Shown here in pieces: positions 5,960-64,000 of a DNA stretch of 64,000 bases (position 1 is its first letter; each line of letters starts with the position of its first letter). The stretch lies in assembly GCF_009914755.1 (NCBI RefSeq), contig NC_060935.1. One strand, 5' to 3'. The notes below the pieces were generated by a model that saw only the letters and a program-made list of their open reading frames with translations, did not search any database and had not been told where the DNA came from. Made by a program: the position numbers and the translations under genes. The DNA comes from the human T2T-CHM13v2.0 reference genome, Homo sapiens.

Positions 5960-6865
5960 CTGTGCCTGCACTATTTATTATAGTAGCCACTAATTACATG
6001 TGTCTACAGAGCACTTGAAATCTGGCTAGTGTGACTGAGAAGTTGAATTTTTAAACTTTTTAAAATTTAATTAATTTAATTTTAATCCTTTCAATGAATA
6101 GTTACTTCATACACTGGGAAGCTTTTAAGTGCATTTGAACCAATTTGGAATTATGAATTTGCCTTTTCAACTTATGACTTTATGTAATCTCAGTATAAAT
6201 CAAAATTTCAGATGGGAATTTAGCATCCAAATTAGATGTTCTGTAAGTTAAAATATACAGCATGTTTTCTCTCACATGTGGGAAGGTAAAGACACCTTTG
6301 GAGAGGAGAATGATAGACACCAAAGGCTAAGAAGCGTATATAGATCTGTGAGGTAGCGTGGGGGGAGAGGATGTGAGAGAGATTGATTAAGGGATATAAA
6401 CATACAGTTATATAGAAGAAATAGGTTCTATTGTTGATAGCAGAGTTGGGTGACTATAGTTAAGAACAATGTATATTTCAAAACAGCTAGAAGTGGGGAC
6501 TGGAAATGTTCTCGGCACATAGGAATGATAAATACTGGAGGTGATAGATACCCCAAATACCCTGACTTAATCATTACACATTCTATGTATGTAACACAAT
6601 ATTACACGTAACCCATAAATATGTCAGAATATTATGTATCAATAAAATTATGCAGCAGATCTCACAAGAGTTAGTGTGGAAAAAGAATGCAAAATATCTC
6701 AATAAATTTATATTGCTTACATGTCAAAATAATAAATTGTATATATTGAATTAAGATATATTTTAAAACTCAACTTAGCCCATTTTTAAAATATTTTTAA
6801 TGAGGCTACTGGAAACATTTTATATTGCATCCATGGCTTTCATTATCTTTTTACTGGAAAGTAGT
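5960..6865. mobile_element. Charlie1/MER33-type hAT transposon interrupted by an L1MA 3' end
   Basis: 'gtagccactaattacatgtg...gagcacttgaaatctggctagtg' left end; 'gaggctactggaaac...ttactggaaagtagtg' right end. Confidence 0.75.
6258..6650 (+). mobile_element. L1MA 3' UTR fragment
   Basis: 'gtgactatagttaagaacaatgta...ccctgacttaatcattacacattc...tatgtatcaataaaa'. Confidence 0.85.
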
Positions 6866-7538: not shown

Positions 7539-7704
7539 CTCAATATACAGTATTTCCCAGCCCTCTAACAGAAGACTGGCACCCAGGAAAAATAAGGGAT
7601 CAAGAAGTGCCAATCTACAAATTATTATTTGGGCATGTAAGCAGTATAAACTTATGGATATATTTTGCATTCTTTTTTATGCTAACTCTTGTGAGATCTG
7701 CTGC

Positions 7705-7928
7705 ATATTTTTACTGATACATAATATTCTTACATATCAATTGGTTACATGTAATGTTGTGTTTCATACATAGAATGTGTAATGATCAAGTCAGGTTATT
7801 TGGGGTGCCTATCACCTCCAGTACTTATCATTTCTGTGTGTTGAGAACATTTCAAGTATCCTCTTCTATCTATTCAGAAATACATAAAACATTGTGCTTA
7901 ACTATAGTCATCCAACTCTGCTATTGAG
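7705..7928 (-). mobile_element. L1MA 3' end, antisense
   Basis: 'tgtgtaatgatcaagtcagg...aactatagtcatccaactctgctattga'. Confidence 0.8.
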
Positions 7929-13429: not shown

Positions 13430-14355
13430 GTAAGATTAGATGTCAGAATCACTGCTACTAGAATCTATATGACACATTCCTCTAGAAGTGAGGGATCTCT
13501 CCTGATCTGTTTTGTCCACCACCAACTCTTGATGTATTTTAGGAAAATTTTTCCTTCTCCCAATGTGAATTTCCCTGAATGCATGTCCAGACTCAGAATG
13601 CAAGCCCTGATAACCTGGAGATACCTCAGCCTCACAGTCACCATCCTGACTAGCACCTGCATCTTTATCACCCCCAGCATGGTATGTCAGCCAATAGTAG
13701 ACGAAAATTCTGTCATTATTAGACGAAGCAACTTGATCCTTAATGACACGTCCCCATTCCAAAACAGGATGGTGATTGACTTTTTCATGGCAAAAAGACC
13801 TAATTAAAGTATTTTGTTTAGTAGTCCCATACACAAAGGAGCTGTAGCTGTTCTGCCTCTCCCCTCCTCTAGCAAAGGGGTAAACTTTACCTGGTAGAGG
13901 AAGTGGGAAAACAACCTAAGAACCTTGAACAGAAGTATTAGATACCAGTCTCAAAGTATCCCATTAATCTACTTTAGAAAGTGCAATGAAATGGGACCTG
14001 AAGGAGGCGACTGCTAAAAGTAGAGTTCCGAGAAGAAACAATCCACTTACCCTGTTGGAATCAGATAAATCTGGTGATTGGGGCTGCAGATAAAATTAAG
14101 TACAGAGCTCCATTAGTGAGTGGAAGACAACAATTTGGCTAAAGCCAAATACCCGAATTTCTCAACATCATTCTAGAAGAGTTTGACTATTTGGTGGGCA
14201 ATAAGCAGCCACAGAAAGTTTCTATGAATCAGGGATAGAAATGAAAGATACACTATCCACAATGAGAGATGCTAGAGGGGGAGGAAACAGAACTACTAAA
14301 GAGACATCTGTCAAAGTGAATTCGAGTTCAACTGAGAGCAACTCAAGAAGCAATG
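13430..14355 (+). pseudogene. Candidate endogenous bornavirus-like L polymerase (EBLL) fragment, N-terminal region, decayed (copy A)
   Basis: Collinear peptides LLMYFRKIFPSPNVNFP...LTVTIL (ORF 13406-13807), IDF/SWQKDLIKV and NLVIGAADKIKYRAPLV...IPEFLNIILEEFD resemble BoDV-1 L as recalled ([63 protein letters not shown]); multiple stops and frameshifts; manual alignment only. Confidence 0.5.
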
Positions 14356-14455
14356 TTGCATGCCTGTTTCCAAACATCTCATATACCCCACAAATATATA
14401 CACCTATTATGTTCCCACAAAAATTAAAAATTAAAATTAACAAAAATAAAATAAA
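14356..14455 (+). mobile_element. Terminal ~100 bp of L1MA1-3-type 3' UTR plus A-rich tail fused to copy A
   Basis: 'ttgcatgcctgtttccaaacatctcatataccccacaaatatatacacctattatgttcccacaaaaattaaaaattaaaa'. Confidence 0.85.
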
Positions 14456-15369
14456 TTTTTTTAAAAGAGGCAAGAGCAAAGGGGAATATGGGAAGAGTCT
14501 AGATACCAGAGACTTGAGGTTGACTTTCACCAGAAAAGTATCAGGATGTAGGTACTTGACAGTAAAGTTAAGTGCTAAAGTTATTAGAGTAAAACACAAT
14601 TCACTCTCATGTTCATATGAACTTCCATTAGTGTATAGGTATTATCAGTATCAAAATGTAGCTATACCTATATTTCTGTGTGCTTAATAATTTGGGGGCA
14701 GAGGAGGTGGCTTGTCTTTGTATTTTAACCATAGTGCAGTCCACATACAAGAATCATAATTAACAGGCATTAAGGTAACTTGCCAGAGGTAAATTTGGTT
14801 CATTCTGCCATCATAAATGAAAGAGCAGTCAATATTTTTTTTCAAATGAACATATATAGTATCATACATGAATCTGAATAAAATGTTCAACTTAGTCATG
14901 GAGATTAGCGATTTTGTTCAGTGATAGCTGAAGATCACAGGATGCTCAGTTAAATTCTAATAATTTCAGTAAAATTATAATAGTTTGTCTACTAAAAATC
15001 ATTTTGCTTGATAGCTCTGGGAACTTAGAAATTTCATGGGAAAATTATTTTTCTCCCTTTCAGAGAATAGAAAGCAAAGCCAGTAAACAGTCAGGCCTTC
15101 TGCCAAAGGAAAATTATCTATGCCTAGAATGGATAAATTCCCAGCTCATAAAGATTTTTTTCTTCATCTCCATGGCATAGTCACGTCTTATTCTAAGAGC
15201 CTCTGGCAGTTGCTGGAAAATTGTTGGACCACTGGGTATGTCATTAAGACCATCTTCACCCTTAAAAAGAATTGTACATCAAAGTAGTGCATGCACAGTG
15301 AAACTTCTCATGATATCTAAAGCCTGAAAATAATTATTCAGAATATAGGAGAGAATAAATTTATACCTG

Positions 15370-15867: not shown

Positions 15868-17602
15868 CCACTATATCTAGCCTGTACCACTGCACATGTA
15901 TCCTAAATGTCTTCCCAATTTCCAGTCTTGACCCTCTATACTCAATTTCCCCAAATCAGTAACAGCAAGATTTTAAAAATACAAATCAAATCATATCATA
16001 CTCTGCTCAAAAACCTACAAAAATTTCCCACTAAATTTTGATTTGACTCTGGCTCCTTCCCTGGCCTCATTCCTTATCCCTCTTCCTGTCCTTCACTATG
16101 TGGCTATACTTGAAACAAACTAAAAATACATGTAAGCAAACAGAAAAAATACATATAAAAACAACTTCAGTAAAAATCCAGCTAATAATTTGATCTCCCA
16201 GTGAGTCCAAAAATGCTTTAAAAATTATAGCCTTGACAGAAAATACAAGTTAATCATTCTTTATTCATTTTTTAAATAACTGATATGTACAGTTATATAC
16301 AGGTAATAGAGAAGGTAGTTATATTTCTGATTCCAGTATGGGTATGTGGATTGTTTCTTCCCTGAACTCTACTTATAGCCATCTCCTTCAGTCATTGGCT
16401 GAGATACGATTCTGGATGTGGTGAAGATGCAAGTCAGGATGATGACTGTGAGGCAGAAGTATCACCCGGTTATCAGGACCTGCATTCTGAGTCTGGACAT
16501 GCATTCAGGGACATTCACATTGGAAGAAGGAGAAATCTCCCTGAAGTACATCAGAAGGTGGTGGTGGACAAAATAAACACAAGAAGATCTTATATTTTGT
16601 TTTTAATTTTTATTTTTTGTGGGTACATAGTAAGTGTATATATTTGTGAGGTACATGAGATGTTTTGATACAGGCATGCAATATTGCCTCTTGAGTTGCT
16701 CCCAGTTGAACTTGAACTCACTTTGACAACTGTCTCTTAAGTAGTTCTGTTTCCTCTCCTTCTCGCTAGCAACTCTCATTCTGGATAGAGTAATTCTGAT
16801 TTCTATTCCTGATTCATAGAAACTTATTGTGGCTGCTTATTGCCCACCAAATAGTCAAACTCTTCTAGAATGATGTTGATAATCTCAGGGATTTCATTTA
16901 GCCAAATTGTCTTTCACTGTTGTCTTCCACTCACTAATGGAGCTCCATACTTAATTGTATCTGCAGCACCAATCACCAAATTTCTCTGATTTCATCAGGG
17001 GTAAGTGGATTGTTTCTTCCTTTTACTCTACTTTTAGCAGTTTTCTCCTTCAGGTACCATTTCATTGCACCTTTCATACTAGATTAGTGGAATACTTTGA
17101 AACCAGTAACTACTCCTTCTGACACGTTCAAGGTCCTAAGGTATTTTCCTACTCCCTCTAGCAGATGAAGTGTACCCCTTTACCAGAGAAGGGAAGAGGC
17201 AGAACAGGGACAGCTTCTTTGTGTGTGGACTACTAAACATAATACTTCAAGTGGGTTTTTTGGGTTTTCTTTATTTTTATTTTTTTACAACGCAAAAGAA
17301 ATATCCCTTTTTGCTTGCATGTATCTTTAGTTTGTTTTAGTAGGACTACACTGTTCCTGCTAAAAATCAATCCAACCAGTGATCACCCTTGCCTCAGATC
17401 ATTTTATTCTGCCCAGAATGCTTTTCCCATGATTTTCACCATTTTACATGGAAGTCACTTCAGAAGGGTCCTACCTAATTTTGTACTAAGAAGAGCACAC
17501 TTGAGACTTTCTATTTCTAGTCATTGCTTAATTTATCTTCATATGTCTTGTAAGGTACATAACAAAATCCTAATAAATATTTCCCGTGTGAATAAATGAA
17601 TG
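15868..17602 (+). mobile_element. L2 split by the mosaic insertion (pieces 15868-16108 and 17341-17602)
   Basis: 'aaatcaaatcatatcatactctgctcaaaaacct...cactatgtggctatac' resumes as 'ggactacactgttcc...ctgcccagaatgcttttcc...aataaatatt...gaataaatgaatg'. Confidence 0.7.
16109..17340 (-). other. Complex locally templated insertion (five pieces) containing inverted copy B of the candidate EBLL-L1 chimera
   Basis: 16109-16322 = rc(18335-18550); 16323-16391 = rc(~13997-14070); 16392-16590 = rc(~13493-13695); 16591-17262 = rc(~13790-14445); 17308-17340 = direct copy of 18518-18550. Confidence 0.93.
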
Positions 17603-17829
17603 GGTCAATGAAAGAGGAAAGGATACCAAGTATGACTCTTTTTATGTGGTTTCACAAGCTTTCTGAATCCAACAGGGGACCCTGTAAGGATCATGTCATC
17701 CACTTGCCGTTGTAAGAAGGCAGCTTTAACTCCAGAAGTCTTGGCAAACCTAGGAGATTTTTAAAAGTTGTTGTAGTTTTAATAGTTTTATTTTTTACAT
17801 TTAATAATATCTATTTATTCACCAATGCT

Positions 17830-17968: not shown

Positions 17969-18007
17969 GGGTAATGAATAACTACAGCGCACGGCCCCCC
18001 TGCCCCC

Positions 18008-18008
<1 letters not shown>

Positions 18009-18051
<43 letters not shown>
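18009..18051. repeat. (CA)n microsatellite, ~21 units
   Basis: Direct reading. Confidence 0.97.
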
Positions 18052-18052
<1 letters not shown>

Positions 18053-18288: not shown

Positions 18289-19840
18289 TGTTTATATCAT
18301 ATATCTGGTTAATTAGTGAAAATAGCTCCTCATCATAACTACCTCCACTGTTACTTGTGCATAACTGTACATGTCAGTTATTTTAAAAATGAATAAAGAA
18401 TAATTAACCTCTATATTTCTGTCAAGACTATAACATTTTTAAGCATTTAGGGACTCATTGGGAGGTCAGATCATTAGCTGGATTTTTACTGAAGTTGTTT
18501 TTAAACTTATTTTTTCTGTTTGCTTATATGTATTTTTAGTTTGTTTCAAGGAACTTCAGTTCTAAAAGATTCTGCTATCTTTGAAGTGTGATAGTCATCA
18601 CAGGTTAAATAGGTCTCTTGGTTTTATGAGAAATGAGACTGCAATTTCCAAGATAAATACAAATTAATCTGGCTTTAAAAAATAAACGGCATATGCTACA
18701 ATAGAGAGCAAAACTTGAAAATTATAGAAATGAGAGGAAGGTGAAACAAATGCATAAATAGATACAAGGAACATTTTTTAAGAGATCATATGCAAAAAAA
18801 TCACAATAGATATTCATGGGAAATACATGCAGGAAGCCAAACCAGCTTCCTCCTTGACTTGGATTCTTTCTGAAATTCAAACCAGTTATGTGTGATAATT
18901 TTAGGGAGAAAGAGAAAAGGATGATTTATTCCCATGAAAACATGACAAAAGTTAAAATGACACAAGTTAAAGCAACATGAAACATAAAATGGCAAGGAAA
19001 ATAATATGTGCAGAGGACAATGAGAAAAATAGGGGTCAAATTCCAAACAGGACTATGTAGTATGAGAGTTAGTGACAGCATTATATTTGTACTCACAGAA
19101 TTGACAAGTACATAGTGAAAATGAAAACATTTTTATGCTATTAAATTCTTTCATAAGCAAAGGTTATGGACTGGCCCAGTAAATCATTATATTTTGATCC
19201 TAGAATCTACCTTCTATGAAAGCTGAATTTTACTTTGATAATTTATATTAATATTAACGAGTCTGAACATTTAAAAATTATTATGATAAAATGGCAGTTG
19301 GTTATGTGATTTTCTCCTACTTGTTACTTGTCATATTGATGACAGTCTGGTTTAATGAACTCAGCTTTTCCCACACAGTGCTCTACAGTACACTGTTACC
19401 AAAATGCTAGTAACTGCTCATCCAAAAAACAGGGAAAAAAATAGTGGATCTGGATCTGTTTTTGGATACATAAATTGGAGAAATACTAAATTTTAATCTA
19501 ACTAATACTGAATGTCAATCTAACTATTTCCTGCAAAGCATTTCAGAAATTTTAACATTCTTATGGGCATTTTAATATCCCCCAAGGGACTTATATTATA
19601 AATGTATAAAAACATTTTTGACATTTAAAGATAATAGTATTCTATGGAACACAGTTTGGAATCTACTTATATATGTTCTTTTTAAAGAACTGAGTGATAG
19701 ATCAACCATTCATAGGCATTTTCATCATTTTTTTTAACCATTTGGTTTGTGAATTTGAGGATCACCCGCTCTCTCTCTCCCCCATCTCCCATATCCTCTT
19801 TCCTTGTCTCCATTTTTACACCAACATGCTACGGTTGCAA

Positions 19841-20155
19841 TTTTTTTTTTATTTATTTTTATTTATTTATTTTTTTGACGGAGTCTGGCTCTGTCGCCCA
19901 GGCTGGAGTGCAGCGGCGCGATCTCGGCTTAATGCAAGCTCCGCCTCCCGGATCCACGCCATTCTCCTGCCTCAGCCTCCAGAGTAGCTGGGACTACAGG
20001 CGCCCGCCACCATGCAAGCTAATTTTTTTGTATTCTTAGTAGAGACGGGGTTTTACCGTGTTAGCCAGGATGGTCTCGAACTCCTGATCTCGTGATCCTC
20101 CTGCCTTGGCCTCCCAAAGTGCTGGGATTACAGGCGTCAGCCACCGCACCCGGCC
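19841..20155 (-). mobile_element. AluY
   Basis: 'gcaagctccgcctcccgg..cacgccattctcc', 'gttagccaggatggtctcg'; TSD around 'ggttgcaa'. Confidence 0.95.
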
Positions 20156-23959: not shown

Positions 23960-27871
<3,912 letters not shown>

Positions 27872-37017: not shown

Positions 37018-38178
<1,161 letters not shown>

Positions 38179-61884: not shown

Positions 61885-64000
61885 TTTTTTAAAATTATAC
61901 TTAAAGTTCTGGGTTACATGTGCAGAATGTGTAGGTTTGTTACATAGGTATACACGTGCCATGGTGGTTTGCTGCACTCATCAACCCATCACCTACATTA
62001 GGTATTTCTCCTAATGCTATCCCTCCCCTAGCCTGCTACCCCTTGACAGGCCCCAGTGCATAATATTCCTCTCCCTGTGTCCATGTATTCTCATTGTTCA
62101 ACTCCCAATATCAGTGAGAACATGCAGAGTTTGGTTTTCTGTTCCTGTGTTAGTTTGCTGAGAATGATGGTTTCCAGCTTCATCCATGTGCCTGCAAAAG
62201 ACATGAACTCATCTTTTTTATGGCTGCAAAGTATTCCATTTTGTATATGTGCCACATTTTCTTTATTCAGTCTATCACTGATGGACATTTGGGTTGGTTC
62301 CAAGTCTTTGCTATTGTGAACAGTGCTGCAATAAACATATGTGTGCATGTGTCTTTATAGTAGAATGATTTATGATCCTTTGGGTATATACCCAGTAATG
62401 GGATTGCTCGGTCAAATGTTATTTCTGGTTCTAGATCCTTCAGGAACTGCCACACTGTCTTCCACAATGGTTGAACTAATTTACAATCCTATCAACAGTG
62501 TAAAAGCGTTCCTATTTCTCATCTTCTCCAACATCTGTTTATTCCTGACTTTTGAATGATCACCATTCTAACTGGTGTGAGATGGTATCTCATTGTGGTT
62601 TTGATTTGCATTTCTCTAATGGCCAGAGATGATGAGCTTTTTTTCGTGTTTGTTGGCCACATAAATATCTTCTTTTGATAAGTGTCTGTTCATATCCTTT
62701 GCCCACTTTTGGATGGGGCTGTTTGCTTTTTCTTGTAAATTTGTTTAAGTTCTTTGTAGATTCTGGATATTAGACTTTGTCAGATGGATAGACTGCAAAC
62801 ATTTGCTCCCATTCTGTAGGTTGCCTGTTCACTCATGGTAGTTTCTTTTGCTGTGCAGAAGCTCTTTAGTTTAATTAGATATCATTTGTCAATTTTGGCT
62901 TTTGTTGCAATCGCTTTTGGTGTTTTAGTCATGAATTCTTTGCCCATGCCTATGTCCTGAATGGTATTGACTAGGTTTTCTGCTATGGTTTTTATGCTTT
63001 TAGGTCTTATGTTTAAGCCTTTCATCTATCTTGAGTTAATTTTTGTATAAGGTGTAAGGAAGGGGTCCAATTTCATTTCTCTGCATATGGCTAGCCAGTT
63101 TTCCCAACACTATTTATTAAATAAGGAATCCTTCCCATTGCTTGGTTTTGTCAGGTTTGTCAAAGATCAGATGGTTGTAGATGTGTGACATTATTTCTGA
63201 GGCCTCTGTTCTGTTCCACTGGACTATGTATCTGTGTTCATACCAGTACCATCCTGTTTTGGTTACTGTAGCCTTGTAGTATAGTTTGAAGTCAGGTAGC
63301 ATGATGCCTCCAGCTTTGTTCTTTTTACTTAGAATTGTCTTGGCTATATGGGCTCTTTTTGGTTCCATATAAAATTTAAAGTAGCTTTTTCCAATTCTGT
63401 GAAGAAAGTGAATGGCAGCTTCATGAAGATAGCATTGAATCTGTAAATTACTTTGGGCAGTATGGCCATTTTCATGACATTGGTTCTTCCTATCCATGAG
63501 CATGGAATGTTTTTGCATTTGTTTGTGTCCTCTCTTATTTCCTTGAGCAGTGGTTTGTAGTTCTCCTTGAAGAAGTCCTCCACATCCCTTGTAAGTTGTA
63601 TTCCTAGGTATTTTATTCTCTTGTAGCAATTGTAAATGGGAGTTCCCTCATGATTTGGTTCTCTGTTTGTCTATTATTGGTGTATAGGAATGCTTGTGAT
63701 TTTTGCGCATTGATTTTGTATCCTGAGAATTTGCTGAAGTTGTTTATCAGCTTAAGGAGATTTGGGGCTGAAACTCCCACATAATAATAGTGGGAGTCTT
63801 TAACACCCCACTGTCAATATTAGACAGATCAACAAGACAGGAAATTAACAAGGATATTCAGGACTTGAACTCAGCCCTGGACCAAGTGTATCTAATAGAC
63901 ATTGACACAACTCTCCACCCCAAATCAATGGAATATACATTCTTCTCAGCACCACATCACACTTATTCTAAAATTGACCACATAATTGGAAGTAAAACAC
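61885..64000 (-). mobile_element. L1PA7-like element: minus-strand 3' part (61885-63771) joined to a plus-strand ORF2 endonuclease segment (63772-64000, runs off the window)
   Basis: Antisense 3' UTR and ORF2 (ORFs 62091-63629), abrupt switch to sense 'actcccacataataatagtggga..tttaacacccc'. Confidence 0.92.

What the first reader, a model, noticed from the sequence alone, without database searches (positions are those of the whole stretch)
16109..17340. 1.23-kb insertion stitched from five locally templated pieces
Seen: an L2 is interrupted by DNA that maps back to neighbours on both sides: 16109-16322 = rc(18335-18550); 16323-16391 = rc(~13997-14070); 16392-16590 = rc(~13493-13695); 16591-17262 = rc(~13790-14445, including the L1 tail); 17308-17340 = direct copy of 18518-18550. 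About 45 bp of T-rich filler (17263-17307) is unassigned. The ~13997-14070 segment was copied twice, giving three copies in total. Copies are roughly 80-85% identical by eye, so the event is old. Inference: a fossil of serial template switching during break repair (MMBIR/FoSTeS or Pol-theta templated insertion). A possible short target duplication is ggctatact (16102-16110) / ggactacact (17343-17352).
Basis: seen in the sequence. Interest (0 to 1): 0.8.

Follow-up and report, generated by a model that had tools for sequence, protein, structure and literature searches.

The report
Old patchwork insertion copied from neighbours
A 1.2-kb block that splits an ancient L2 repeat upstream of ANO3 is a patchwork of mostly reverse-complement copies of unique DNA lying 1-3 kb away on both sides, most likely one old DNA-repair or replication accident of a known kind with no sign of function.

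Summary
Window 16109-17342 interrupts one old repeat (L2 by recall) whose two halves are collinear with a profile of other copies. The block consists of reverse-complement copies of 18335-18550, 14001-14070, 13494-13695 and 13790-14452, then 42 nt of unassigned filler, then a direct copy of 18516-18546.

- **Divergence:** substitution divergence is 11-15% and does not differ between pieces (chi-square p = 0.75).
- **Copy number:** the T2T genome holds no other copy of the non-L1 pieces. A positive control shows the search does find dispersed families at 78-82% identity, so this is not a mobile family.
- **Direction:** the copied L1 3' tail sets it. The left locus has both copies of the L1's 9-bp target duplication; the insert has only the upstream one.
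- **Target-site duplication:** That motif is the L2's own continuation.
- **Mechanism (inferred):** one multi-jump templated insertion, tens of millions of years old. Serial template switching is the best fit. Re-insertion of a circle or of fragments, or several steps, are not excluded. Pol-theta end joining does not fit the sizes.

This is a new member of a known kind, with moderate interest. Primate orthologues could not be examined.

The parts
15869..16108 (+). Left half of the interrupted old repeat (L2; the name is recalled).
   Evidence: A profile of 26 other genomic copies hits 15869-16032 at E 5.3e-10 and 15976-16096 at E 1.1e-6. The motif at 16001-16020 occurs 76 times in the genome against 0 for the reversed control.
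16109..16322 (-). Piece A: reverse-complement copy of 18335-18550.
   Evidence: E 7e-73; 24 mismatches in 214 sites and 2 indels. The first two bases, CT, also fit the L2 majority sequence, so they are a candidate 2-nt junction microhomology.
16321..16391 (-). Piece B: reverse-complement copy of about 14001-14070, a stretch that is copied again inside piece D at 16985-17053.
   Evidence: 10 mismatches in 67 sites; three-copy alignment.
16394..16588 (-). Piece C: reverse-complement copy of 13494-13695.
   Evidence: E 2e-53; extension to 16588; 28 mismatches in 194 sites.
16589..17264 (-). Piece D: reverse-complement copy of 13790-14452. It includes the copied L1 3' tail (about 16589-16683) and the upstream copy of the L1 target duplication (16684-16692).
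   Evidence: 694 bits; 79 mismatches in 555 non-L1 sites and 10 in 90 L1-tail sites; only query 458-576 has copies elsewhere; the 9-mer at 16684.
17265..17306 (.). Unassigned filler of 42 nt; the first half is T-rich.
   Evidence: The best match is a low-complexity T-rich run at about 19847-19870. The second half scores no better than 98 of 200 shuffles.
17307..17342 (+). Piece A': direct copy of 18516-18546, possibly reaching 18555 with an indel. With 16113-16143 it forms a 31-nt terminal inverted repeat.
   Evidence: (D3 and I11, 90% complementary).
17343..17603 (+). Right half of the interrupted L2. It resumes with GGACT and ends in the family's 3' motif.
   Evidence: joined flanks collinear with the majority sequence. 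(3' end 17550-17603, E 2.7e-5). (3' motif 280 times against 0 for the control). The internal profile hit is weak (E 0.61).
13494..13695 (+). Donor of piece C.
   Evidence: No other genomic copy.
13790..14452 (+). Donor of piece D; its sub-stretch 14001-14070 is also the donor of piece B.
   Evidence: No other genomic copy of the non-L1 part.
14345..14473 (+). 5'-truncated L1 3' tail (about 14354-14456) at its native site, flanked by its target duplication: AAGAAGCAA at 14345-14353 and AAGAGGCAA at 14465-14473.
   Evidence: homology to 15 other L1 tails starts at 14353-14356. (in locus L012, DNA upstream of such a tail encodes LINE-1 ORF2 residues 942-1131, E 1.7e-67). (9-mers).
18335..18550 (+). 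Donor of piece A and, at its right end, of piece A'.
   Evidence: No other genomic copy.

Best explanation
A single ancient germline accident inserted about 1,234 bp into an L2 element, between ...ATACT and GGACT..., with no loss or gain of L2 bases that I can detect.

**Proposed course of events.** A 3' end that left the L2 (at a stalled fork or a resected break) primed on the + strand at 18550 and copied 216 nt leftwards. It then jumped three more times to the + strand of a second region 1.7-2.6 kb on the other side: 14070->14001, then 13695->13494, then 14452->13790. It added about 42 nt of untemplated or unrecognisable filler and copied 18516->~18550 in the forward sense. Finally it rejoined the L2 at an imperfect GGA(A)CT match. 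The donors stayed intact, so the event is a copy-number gain.

**Order of events.** L2 insertion (oldest), then a short L1 3' end inserted at 14354, then the patchwork insertion. Copy-to-donor K2P distance of 0.12-0.17 puts the last event at roughly 35-75 Myr ago if neutral rates are 1-2.2e-9 per site per year (rates recalled).

**Shown:** the templated nature of the block, the piece order, the direction of copying, the absence of a dispersed family, and homogeneous divergence.

**Inferred:** one event, polymerase template switching, and the date.

No function is indicated. The block is intergenic, about 24 kb upstream of the first annotated ANO3 exon. Its only structural legacy is two pairs of inverted repeats: about 0.94 kb with a 1.9-kb spacer, and 0.21 kb with a 2.0-kb spacer.
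For: 1. **Templated pieces.** See, with E-values from 1e-12 to below 1e-70.
2. **Not a repeat family.**
   - A search of the whole T2T assembly with 16690-17262 found 2 candidates, both local.
   - With 18300-18560 it found 2, both local.
   - With 13440-13920 it found 3, all local.
   - With the whole insert, 38 of 42 matches lie elsewhere, and all 38 cover only query 458-576, the L1 tail.
   - Positive control: the inverted pair 6437-6744 / 7613-7924 gave 2477 candidates, and 38 of the 40 scored lie elsewhere at 78-82% identity.
3. **Insertion into a pre-existing repeat.** The flanks are collinear with the majority sequence of 26 other copies.
4. **Direction of copying.** The donor locus carries the L1 tail with both 9-bp target duplications. 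The insert carries the upstream one plus the tail, and then runs straight into piece C. AAGAGGCAA occurs only 3 times in the window on both strands, and 2 of those are these sites.
5. **One time point.** Per-piece mismatch fractions are 0.112, 0.149, 0.144, 0.142 and 0.111; chi-square p = 0.75. In the triplicated stretch I count 3, 3 and 5 changes unique to each copy (my reading of the alignment).
6. **Same orientation.** All four long pieces are copied in the same reverse-complement sense (1 in 8 for random orientation), from donors within about 3 kb in ancestral coordinates.
7. **Precedent.** Iterative template switches with templated insertions are described in PMC5120786 (passages read) and PMC8421209 (passages read). 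Cis-biased gap filling at under 5 kb with a median 2-bp microhomology, including human cases, is described in PMC8277862 (abstract and section 8 read).
Against: - Junction microhomology is weak: candidates are CT (J0), AT (J1), ATTG with an 8-nt gap (J2), 0-1 nt (J3) and GGA(A)CT with a gap (J6). With about 13% divergence none can be verified (my reading).
- Homogeneous divergence cannot separate events a few Myr apart. The standard errors are 1.5-4.4%.
- The D-then-C order is a circular permutation of 13494-14452 lacking 94 bp. A circle or a tandem intermediate explains this without a template switch.
- The first jump starts and the last piece ends at the same donor point (about 18550). A simple one-strand model does not predict this.
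- The genome search misses old repeats: it did not find other L2 copies. The donors may therefore contain very old repeats, although that would not alter the local-copy inference.
- No other primate genome was available.
Confidence: 0.55

Rival explanations
1. Capture of ready-made DNA. A roughly 960-bp circle (or tandem dimer) of 13494-14452 was opened near 13695-13790 and joined, with other small local fragments, into a double-strand break in the L2 by end joining. This is eccDNA-mediated, 'structurally modified' duplication.
For: - In the insert, read in donor sense, 13790->14452 runs directly into 13494->13695. That is a circular permutation of one 959-bp segment missing only 94 bp.
- Such permuted duplicates have been reported in the human genome: 3 strong eccDNA-type and 20 'lariat'-type cases (PMC7188851; abstract, methods and results read).
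- Junction microhomology is minimal, and there are 42 nt of filler.
Against: - One circle does not explain piece B (a second copy of 14001-14070), piece A or piece A'. At least three further fragments from a second donor are needed.
- All four long pieces share one orientation.
- The closeness of C's end to D's start (94 bp within about 960) has roughly a 0.2 chance under random switching (my estimate), so the permutation is weak evidence.
Confidence: 0.2
2. Several separate events close in time. For example, first an inverted copy of 18335-18550 with a fold-back end, then one or more insertions or rearrangements of copies of 13494-14452 inside it.
For: - Piece A (0.112 +- 0.022) is nominally less diverged than C and D (0.142-0.144).
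- The terminal inverted repeat (I11) would be natural for a first fold-back-type event into which later DNA fell.
Against: - The A-versus-rest difference is not significant (p = 0.33); overall p = 0.75.
- Repeated independent hits at one spot, all from donors within 3 kb and in the same orientation, are less parsimonious than one chain.
- The three-copy segment shows no pair sharing extra derived states (my count).
Confidence: 0.17
3. A DNA transposon or other mobile element with 31-nt terminal inverted repeats and a 9-10-bp target duplication, carrying captured host DNA.
For: The ends 16113-16143 and 17307-17337 are 90% complementary (I11).
Against: - No other copy of the ends or the body exists in the genome, while the search does detect dispersed families.
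- The target duplication is not supported.
- No Pfam family in 4 of 4 open frames tested.
- The 'inverted repeat' is itself a copy of unique DNA at 18516-18550.
Confidence: 0.03
4. L1-mediated retro-insertion of a chimeric RNA (template switching by the L1 reverse transcriptase).
For: The insert contains an L1 3' tail with an A-rich run.
Against: - The tail is internal, not at an end of the insert.
- It comes with the donor's unique upstream flank and the upstream target duplication.
- There is no poly-A at either end and no target duplication.
- The piece order is not collinear with any transcript of the locus.
Confidence: 0.02

Closest known systems
Templated insertions from iterative template switching (FoSTeS/MMBIR; 'MMB-TI', chromoanasynthesis-type junction insertions)
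   Same: - Several templated segments from nearby DNA are strung together at one site.
- Copies are mostly inverted and the donors are retained.
- Junction homology is short or absent.
- Sources: PMC8421209 and PMC5120786, passages read.
   Different: - MMB-TIs as defined there are 10 bp to read length, with templates within 100 bp (PMC8421209). Here the pieces are 66-676 nt and the templates lie 1-3 kb away.
- There is no accompanying large copy-number change.
- The event is fixed and tens of Myr old, not a patient or tumour allele.
Short-range template switch mutations (four-point model, Loytynoja & Goldman; Walker et al.)
   Same: A switch-and-return event that writes a reverse-complement copy of nearby sequence and creates inverted repeats (PMC5453318, passages read; PMC7954356, listing and abstract only).
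   Different: That model deliberately covers one short switch-and-return. The authors state that it does not attempt long-range or multiple successive switches (PMC5453318). Here there are at least 4-5 jumps at kb scale.
Transposition-independent gap filling ('single-copy Pack-TIRs')
   Same: A break inside a resident repeat is filled with a copy of nearby host DNA. That work reports a cis bias mostly under 5 kb, a median microhomology of 2 bp, and 33 human cases whose breakpoints were examined (PMC8277862, abstract and section 8 read).
   Different: The host here is an L2 (a non-LTR retroelement), not a TIR transposon. The filler is a five-piece chain from two donors. The inverted termini were made by the event itself.
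eccDNA- or lariat-mediated duplication with structural modification (Takahashi & Innan 2020)
   Same: The order of two donor parts is circularly permuted (D before C). There is also an orthogonal (inverted plus direct) pair of copies of one donor end (PMC7188851, abstract to results read).
   Different: Those cases came from segmental-duplication tables (over 1 kb, mostly over 90% identity) and involve one donor. Here there are two donors, an extra internal repeat of 14001-14070, and lower identity.

Membership tests
Serial template-switch templated insertion (FoSTeS/MMBIR-type) | The inserted DNA is a copy of other genomic sequence and the donors are retained. | tested here: met
   The donors at 13494-14452 and 18335-18550 are intact.
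Serial template-switch templated insertion (FoSTeS/MMBIR-type) | Two or more consecutive jumps between templates lying close together. | tested here: met
   Five pieces from two donor regions, all within about 5 kb (about 3.8 kb before the insertion).
Serial template-switch templated insertion (FoSTeS/MMBIR-type) | Microhomology at the junctions. | tested here: inconclusive
   Candidates of 0-6 nt (CT, AT, ATTG, GGA(A)CT) read. About 13% divergence and the lack of an outgroup prevent verification.
Serial template-switch templated insertion (FoSTeS/MMBIR-type) | All pieces laid down in one event. | tested here: inconclusive
   Divergences are homogeneous (p = 0.75) and the three-copy pattern is star-like. 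This is consistent with one event, but time resolution is poor. Primate presence/absence was not available.
Serial template-switch templated insertion (FoSTeS/MMBIR-type) | Dependence on replication or break-induced synthesis. | not testable with these tools
   A fossil event; no experimental handle.
TIR DNA transposon | Terminal inverted repeats. | tested here: met
   16113-16143 against 17307-17337, 28 of 31 complementary (I11). Both are copies of unique DNA at 18516-18546.
TIR DNA transposon | Target-site duplication. | tested here: not met
   the right-hand motif aligns as the L2's own continuation. The score drops from 98-100 to 91.5 when it is treated as a duplicate.
TIR DNA transposon | Multiple dispersed copies. 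| tested here: not met
   Searches gave only local copies. One search is the positive control for detectability.
L1-mediated retrocopy (TPRT) | A poly-A at the 3' end abutting a target-site duplication. | tested here: not met
   The A-rich L1 tail is internal (16589-16620). There is no terminal poly-A and no duplication.
eccDNA-mediated duplication | The copy is a circular permutation of one donor segment. | tested here: inconclusive
   Met for pieces D and C (13790->14452 | 13494->13695, 94 bp missing). Pieces B, A and A' are not explained by that circle.
Pol-theta end joining (TMEJ) templated insertion | Short inserts (tens of nt) templated within tens of nt of the break. This criterion is recalled, not taken from a call. 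| tested here: not met
   The pieces are 66-676 nt, copied from 1-3 kb away.

The most novel reading that the evidence does not exclude
Both ends of one break in the L2 primed, through 2-5-nt matches, on the same strand at adjacent positions (18549-18555) of a unique sequence 1 kb away, and both were extended in the same direction.

The longer extension then wandered through a second donor, or through a circular copy of it. When the two extensions were joined, the product had terminal inverted repeats created from scratch around captured host DNA. This would be a transposase-free route to a TIR-flanked, Pack-element-like structure in a primate genome.
Probability: 0.12. Interest if true: 0.55.

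Novelty: new member of a known kind. Interest (0 to 1): 0.35.

Why it matters
- It is a fully resolved, fixed, kb-scale germline example of a multi-jump templated insertion. Such chains are otherwise known mainly from patients and tumours.
- A built-in polarity marker shows which copy is the donor: an L1 tail with its target duplication.
- An event of this kind can mimic a transposon, with inverted termini and an apparent target duplication, and can seed long inverted repeats. That matters for repeat annotation and for models of how hairpin-forming DNA arises.
- It has no visible bearing on ANO3 or on any function.

Tried and rejected
- **Coding relic in the donor.** The 159-codon open frame at 13439-13915 (-) and three other frames gave 0 Pfam families. 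A six-frame search of the genome gave only the local copy plus two hits at E 0.16 and 0.35. The protein atlas gave no usable hit. I treat the frame as chance.
- **Naming the L1 tail through Pfam.** 0 of 3 and then 0 of 28 upstream frames matched. I sent 28 of the 93 frames listed, chosen as the longer ones. PDB sequences then gave the answer. A second frame matched only unrelated proteins weakly.
- **Finding L2 relatives.**
  - Direct DNA search found nothing but self.
  - Single-sequence nhmmer on about 110 kb failed.
  - A first profile from 3'-end motif loci covered only the last 50 nt.
  - Pairwise profiles from two loci did not reach the site.
  - A second motif finally gave 30 loci. Four were dropped as copies 90% or more identical, leaving 26.
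- **Templating of the filler.** None was found.
- **TIR transposon and L1 retrocopy readings.** Both were rejected; see the rival explanations.

Full report
**What is there**

| Piece | Insert coordinates | Donor | Orientation | Support |
|---|---|---|---|---|
| A | 16109-16322 | 18335-18550 | reverse complement | E 7e-73 |
| B | 16321/16326-16391 | 14001-14070 | reverse complement | E 1e-12 |
| C | 16394-16588 | 13494-13695 | reverse complement | E 2e-53 |
| D | 16589-17264 | 13790-14452 | reverse complement | 694 bits |
| filler | 17265-17306 | none found | - | |
| A' | 17307-17337 | 18516-18546 | direct | 27/31 |

Piece ends were refined from alignments extended 25 nt past each BLAST end. 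The 14001-14070 stretch is present three times. The two ends of the block, 16113-16143 and 17307-17337, form a 31-nt inverted repeat, because both derive from the same donor end (I11). For the filler, the only match is a T-rich low-complexity run, and its second half scores no better than 98 of 200 shuffles.

**It is an insertion into an older repeat**

A motif from the right flank's 3' end occurs 280 times in the genome against 0 for the reversed control. A motif from the left flank occurs 76 times against 0.

From the 30 loci fetched with the second motif I dropped 4 that were 90% or more identical to another, leaving 26 for alignment. Their profile hits the left flank at E 5.3e-10 and 1.1e-6. 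The right flank's internal part is only weakly hit (E 0.61). Its 3' end is hit at E 2.7e-5 by the other profile.

A global alignment of the joined flanks to the majority sequence is collinear across the junction. The family name L2 is my recollection of this 3' end; no library here names it.

**No target-site duplication**

In that alignment the right-hand motif (GGACTACACT) pairs with the bases that follow the left flank in other copies. Keeping it scores 98.2-100.2 and removing it as a 'duplicate' scores 91.5. The L2 therefore appears to be split cleanly between ...ATACT and GGACT..., within about 2 nt. A duplication combined with a 12-nt deletion cannot be strictly excluded, but it is the less economical reading.

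**Not a mobile family**

The assembly holding the window (3.1 Gb, 24 contigs) was searched with several parts of the structure.

| Query | Result |
|---|---|
| Whole insert | 1405 candidates, 40 scored, 42 matches: 4 local; the other 38 cover only query 458-576 (window about 16566-16684) |
| 16690-17262 | 2 candidates, both local |
| 18300-18560 | 2 candidates, both local |
| 13440-13920 | 3 candidates, all local |

- **Limit of the tool:** it found no other copy of the L2 flanks, so repeats that old are invisible to it.
- **Positive control:** another inverted pair in the window (6437-6744 / 7613-7924) gave 2477 candidates. Of the 40 scored, 38 lie elsewhere at 78-82% identity. A dispersed family as similar as the local copies are to each other (83-88%) would therefore have been seen.

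**The one repeated part is an L1 3' tail, and it gives polarity**

In locus L012, the DNA about 0.7-1.3 kb upstream of such a tail encodes residues 942-1131 of LINE-1 ORF2 protein (E 1.7e-67).

At the left locus, homology to 15 of the 16 fetched tails starts at 14353-14356. The tail is bracketed by AAGAAGCAA (14345-14353) and AAGAGGCAA (14465-14473). The insert copy preserves AAGAGGCAA in front of its tail (16684-16692, minus strand). After a shortened A-rich run, however, it passes directly into piece C. The 9-mer occurs only three times in the window on both strands, and two of those are these sites.

So the L1 landed at the left locus, and the insert is the copy. The order of events is L2, then the L1 tail, then the patchwork. 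Relative to the majority of the other tails, the two local tails share 7 differences and have 6 (left) and 2 (insert) private ones in 94 columns. The comparison tails were chosen as best matches to the insert copy, which biases the last number downward.

**One event?**

| Piece | Sites | Mismatch fraction |
|---|---|---|
| A | 214 | 0.112 |
| B | 67 | 0.149 |
| C | 194 | 0.144 |
| D, non-L1 part | 555 | 0.142 |
| D, L1 tail | 90 | 0.111 |
| A' | 31 | 0.129 |

- The five larger classes do not differ (chi-square 1.9, 4 d.f., p = 0.75). A against the rest gives p = 0.33.
- In the triplicated stretch, my count on the alignment, after correcting its misaligned end by eye, is 3, 3 and 5 private changes. 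That is star-like. The raw tally printed is 6/3/13.
- This fits one event but cannot exclude events a few Myr apart.
- K2P distances of 0.12-0.17 imply roughly 35-75 Myr at recalled neutral rates of 1-2.2e-9 per site per year.

**Mechanism**

Four long pieces share one orientation, the donors are within about 3 kb, the donors are retained, and the target is split cleanly. These features are what a wandering 3' end predicts.

Junction matches are short: CT; AT; ATTG with a gap; 0-1 nt; GGA(A)CT with a gap (read). They cannot be verified at this divergence.

Two features are not predicted by the simplest model:
- The first jump begins and the last piece ends at the same donor point (about 18550). 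This could mean that both ends of a break primed there.
- D followed by C is a circular permutation of 13494-14452 lacking 94 bp, as expected for a re-opened circle or a tandem intermediate. Such cases are reported in PMC7188851 (read through the results).

I rank the explanations as follows: serial template switching 0.55, circle or fragment capture 0.20, several steps 0.17, transposon 0.03, L1 retrocopy 0.02.

**Comparison with what is known**

- Iterative template switching with templated insertions is established in patients and tumours (PMC5120786, PMC8421209; passages read).
- Short single switch-and-return events are established in ape evolution (PMC5453318, passages read; PMC7954356, abstract only).
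- Cis-biased gap filling inside transposons occurs in animals including humans (PMC8277862, abstract and section 8 read).
- The present case differs in scale (66-676-nt pieces, kb distances), in the number of jumps, in its age, and in its host element.
- I found no paper on this locus, but I made no search aimed at it. My four literature searches were about mechanisms.

**Function**

None is indicated. No Pfam family was found in the open frames, and the frames have no relatives. The hub's table places the block about 24 kb upstream of the first ANO3 exon.

Noticed in passing
window 6437-6744 and 7613-7924: An inverted pair, 85% identical over 313 nt and about 870 nt apart. Unlike the finding, it belongs to a dispersed family: 2477 genomic candidates, with 38 of the 40 scored lying elsewhere at 78-82% over query 90-312 only. 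The local pair also shares the first ~95 nt, which the other copies lack.
   Followed up: partly
window 13439-13915 (- strand): A 159-codon open frame spans donor C, the 94-nt gap and the start of donor D. It has no Pfam family, no genomic relatives and no atlas look-alike. The atlas holds the same sequence from residue 28 as a record, which shows nothing about expression. It is probably chance.
   Followed up: yes
window about 18006-18052: A (CA)n microsatellite of about 23 units lies between the insertion and donor A, about 285 nt left of the donor. It is a possible fork-stalling site but was not examined.
   Followed up: no
window 14457-14463: A run of 7 T sits between the A-rich end of the L1 tail and the downstream target duplication. 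It is unexplained.
   Followed up: no
window 25945-27855 vs 61885-63774; 26759-27857 vs 37074-38166: Long matches at 87-92% in direct and inverted orientation. These are presumably copies of a younger interspersed repeat and were not examined.
   Followed up: no
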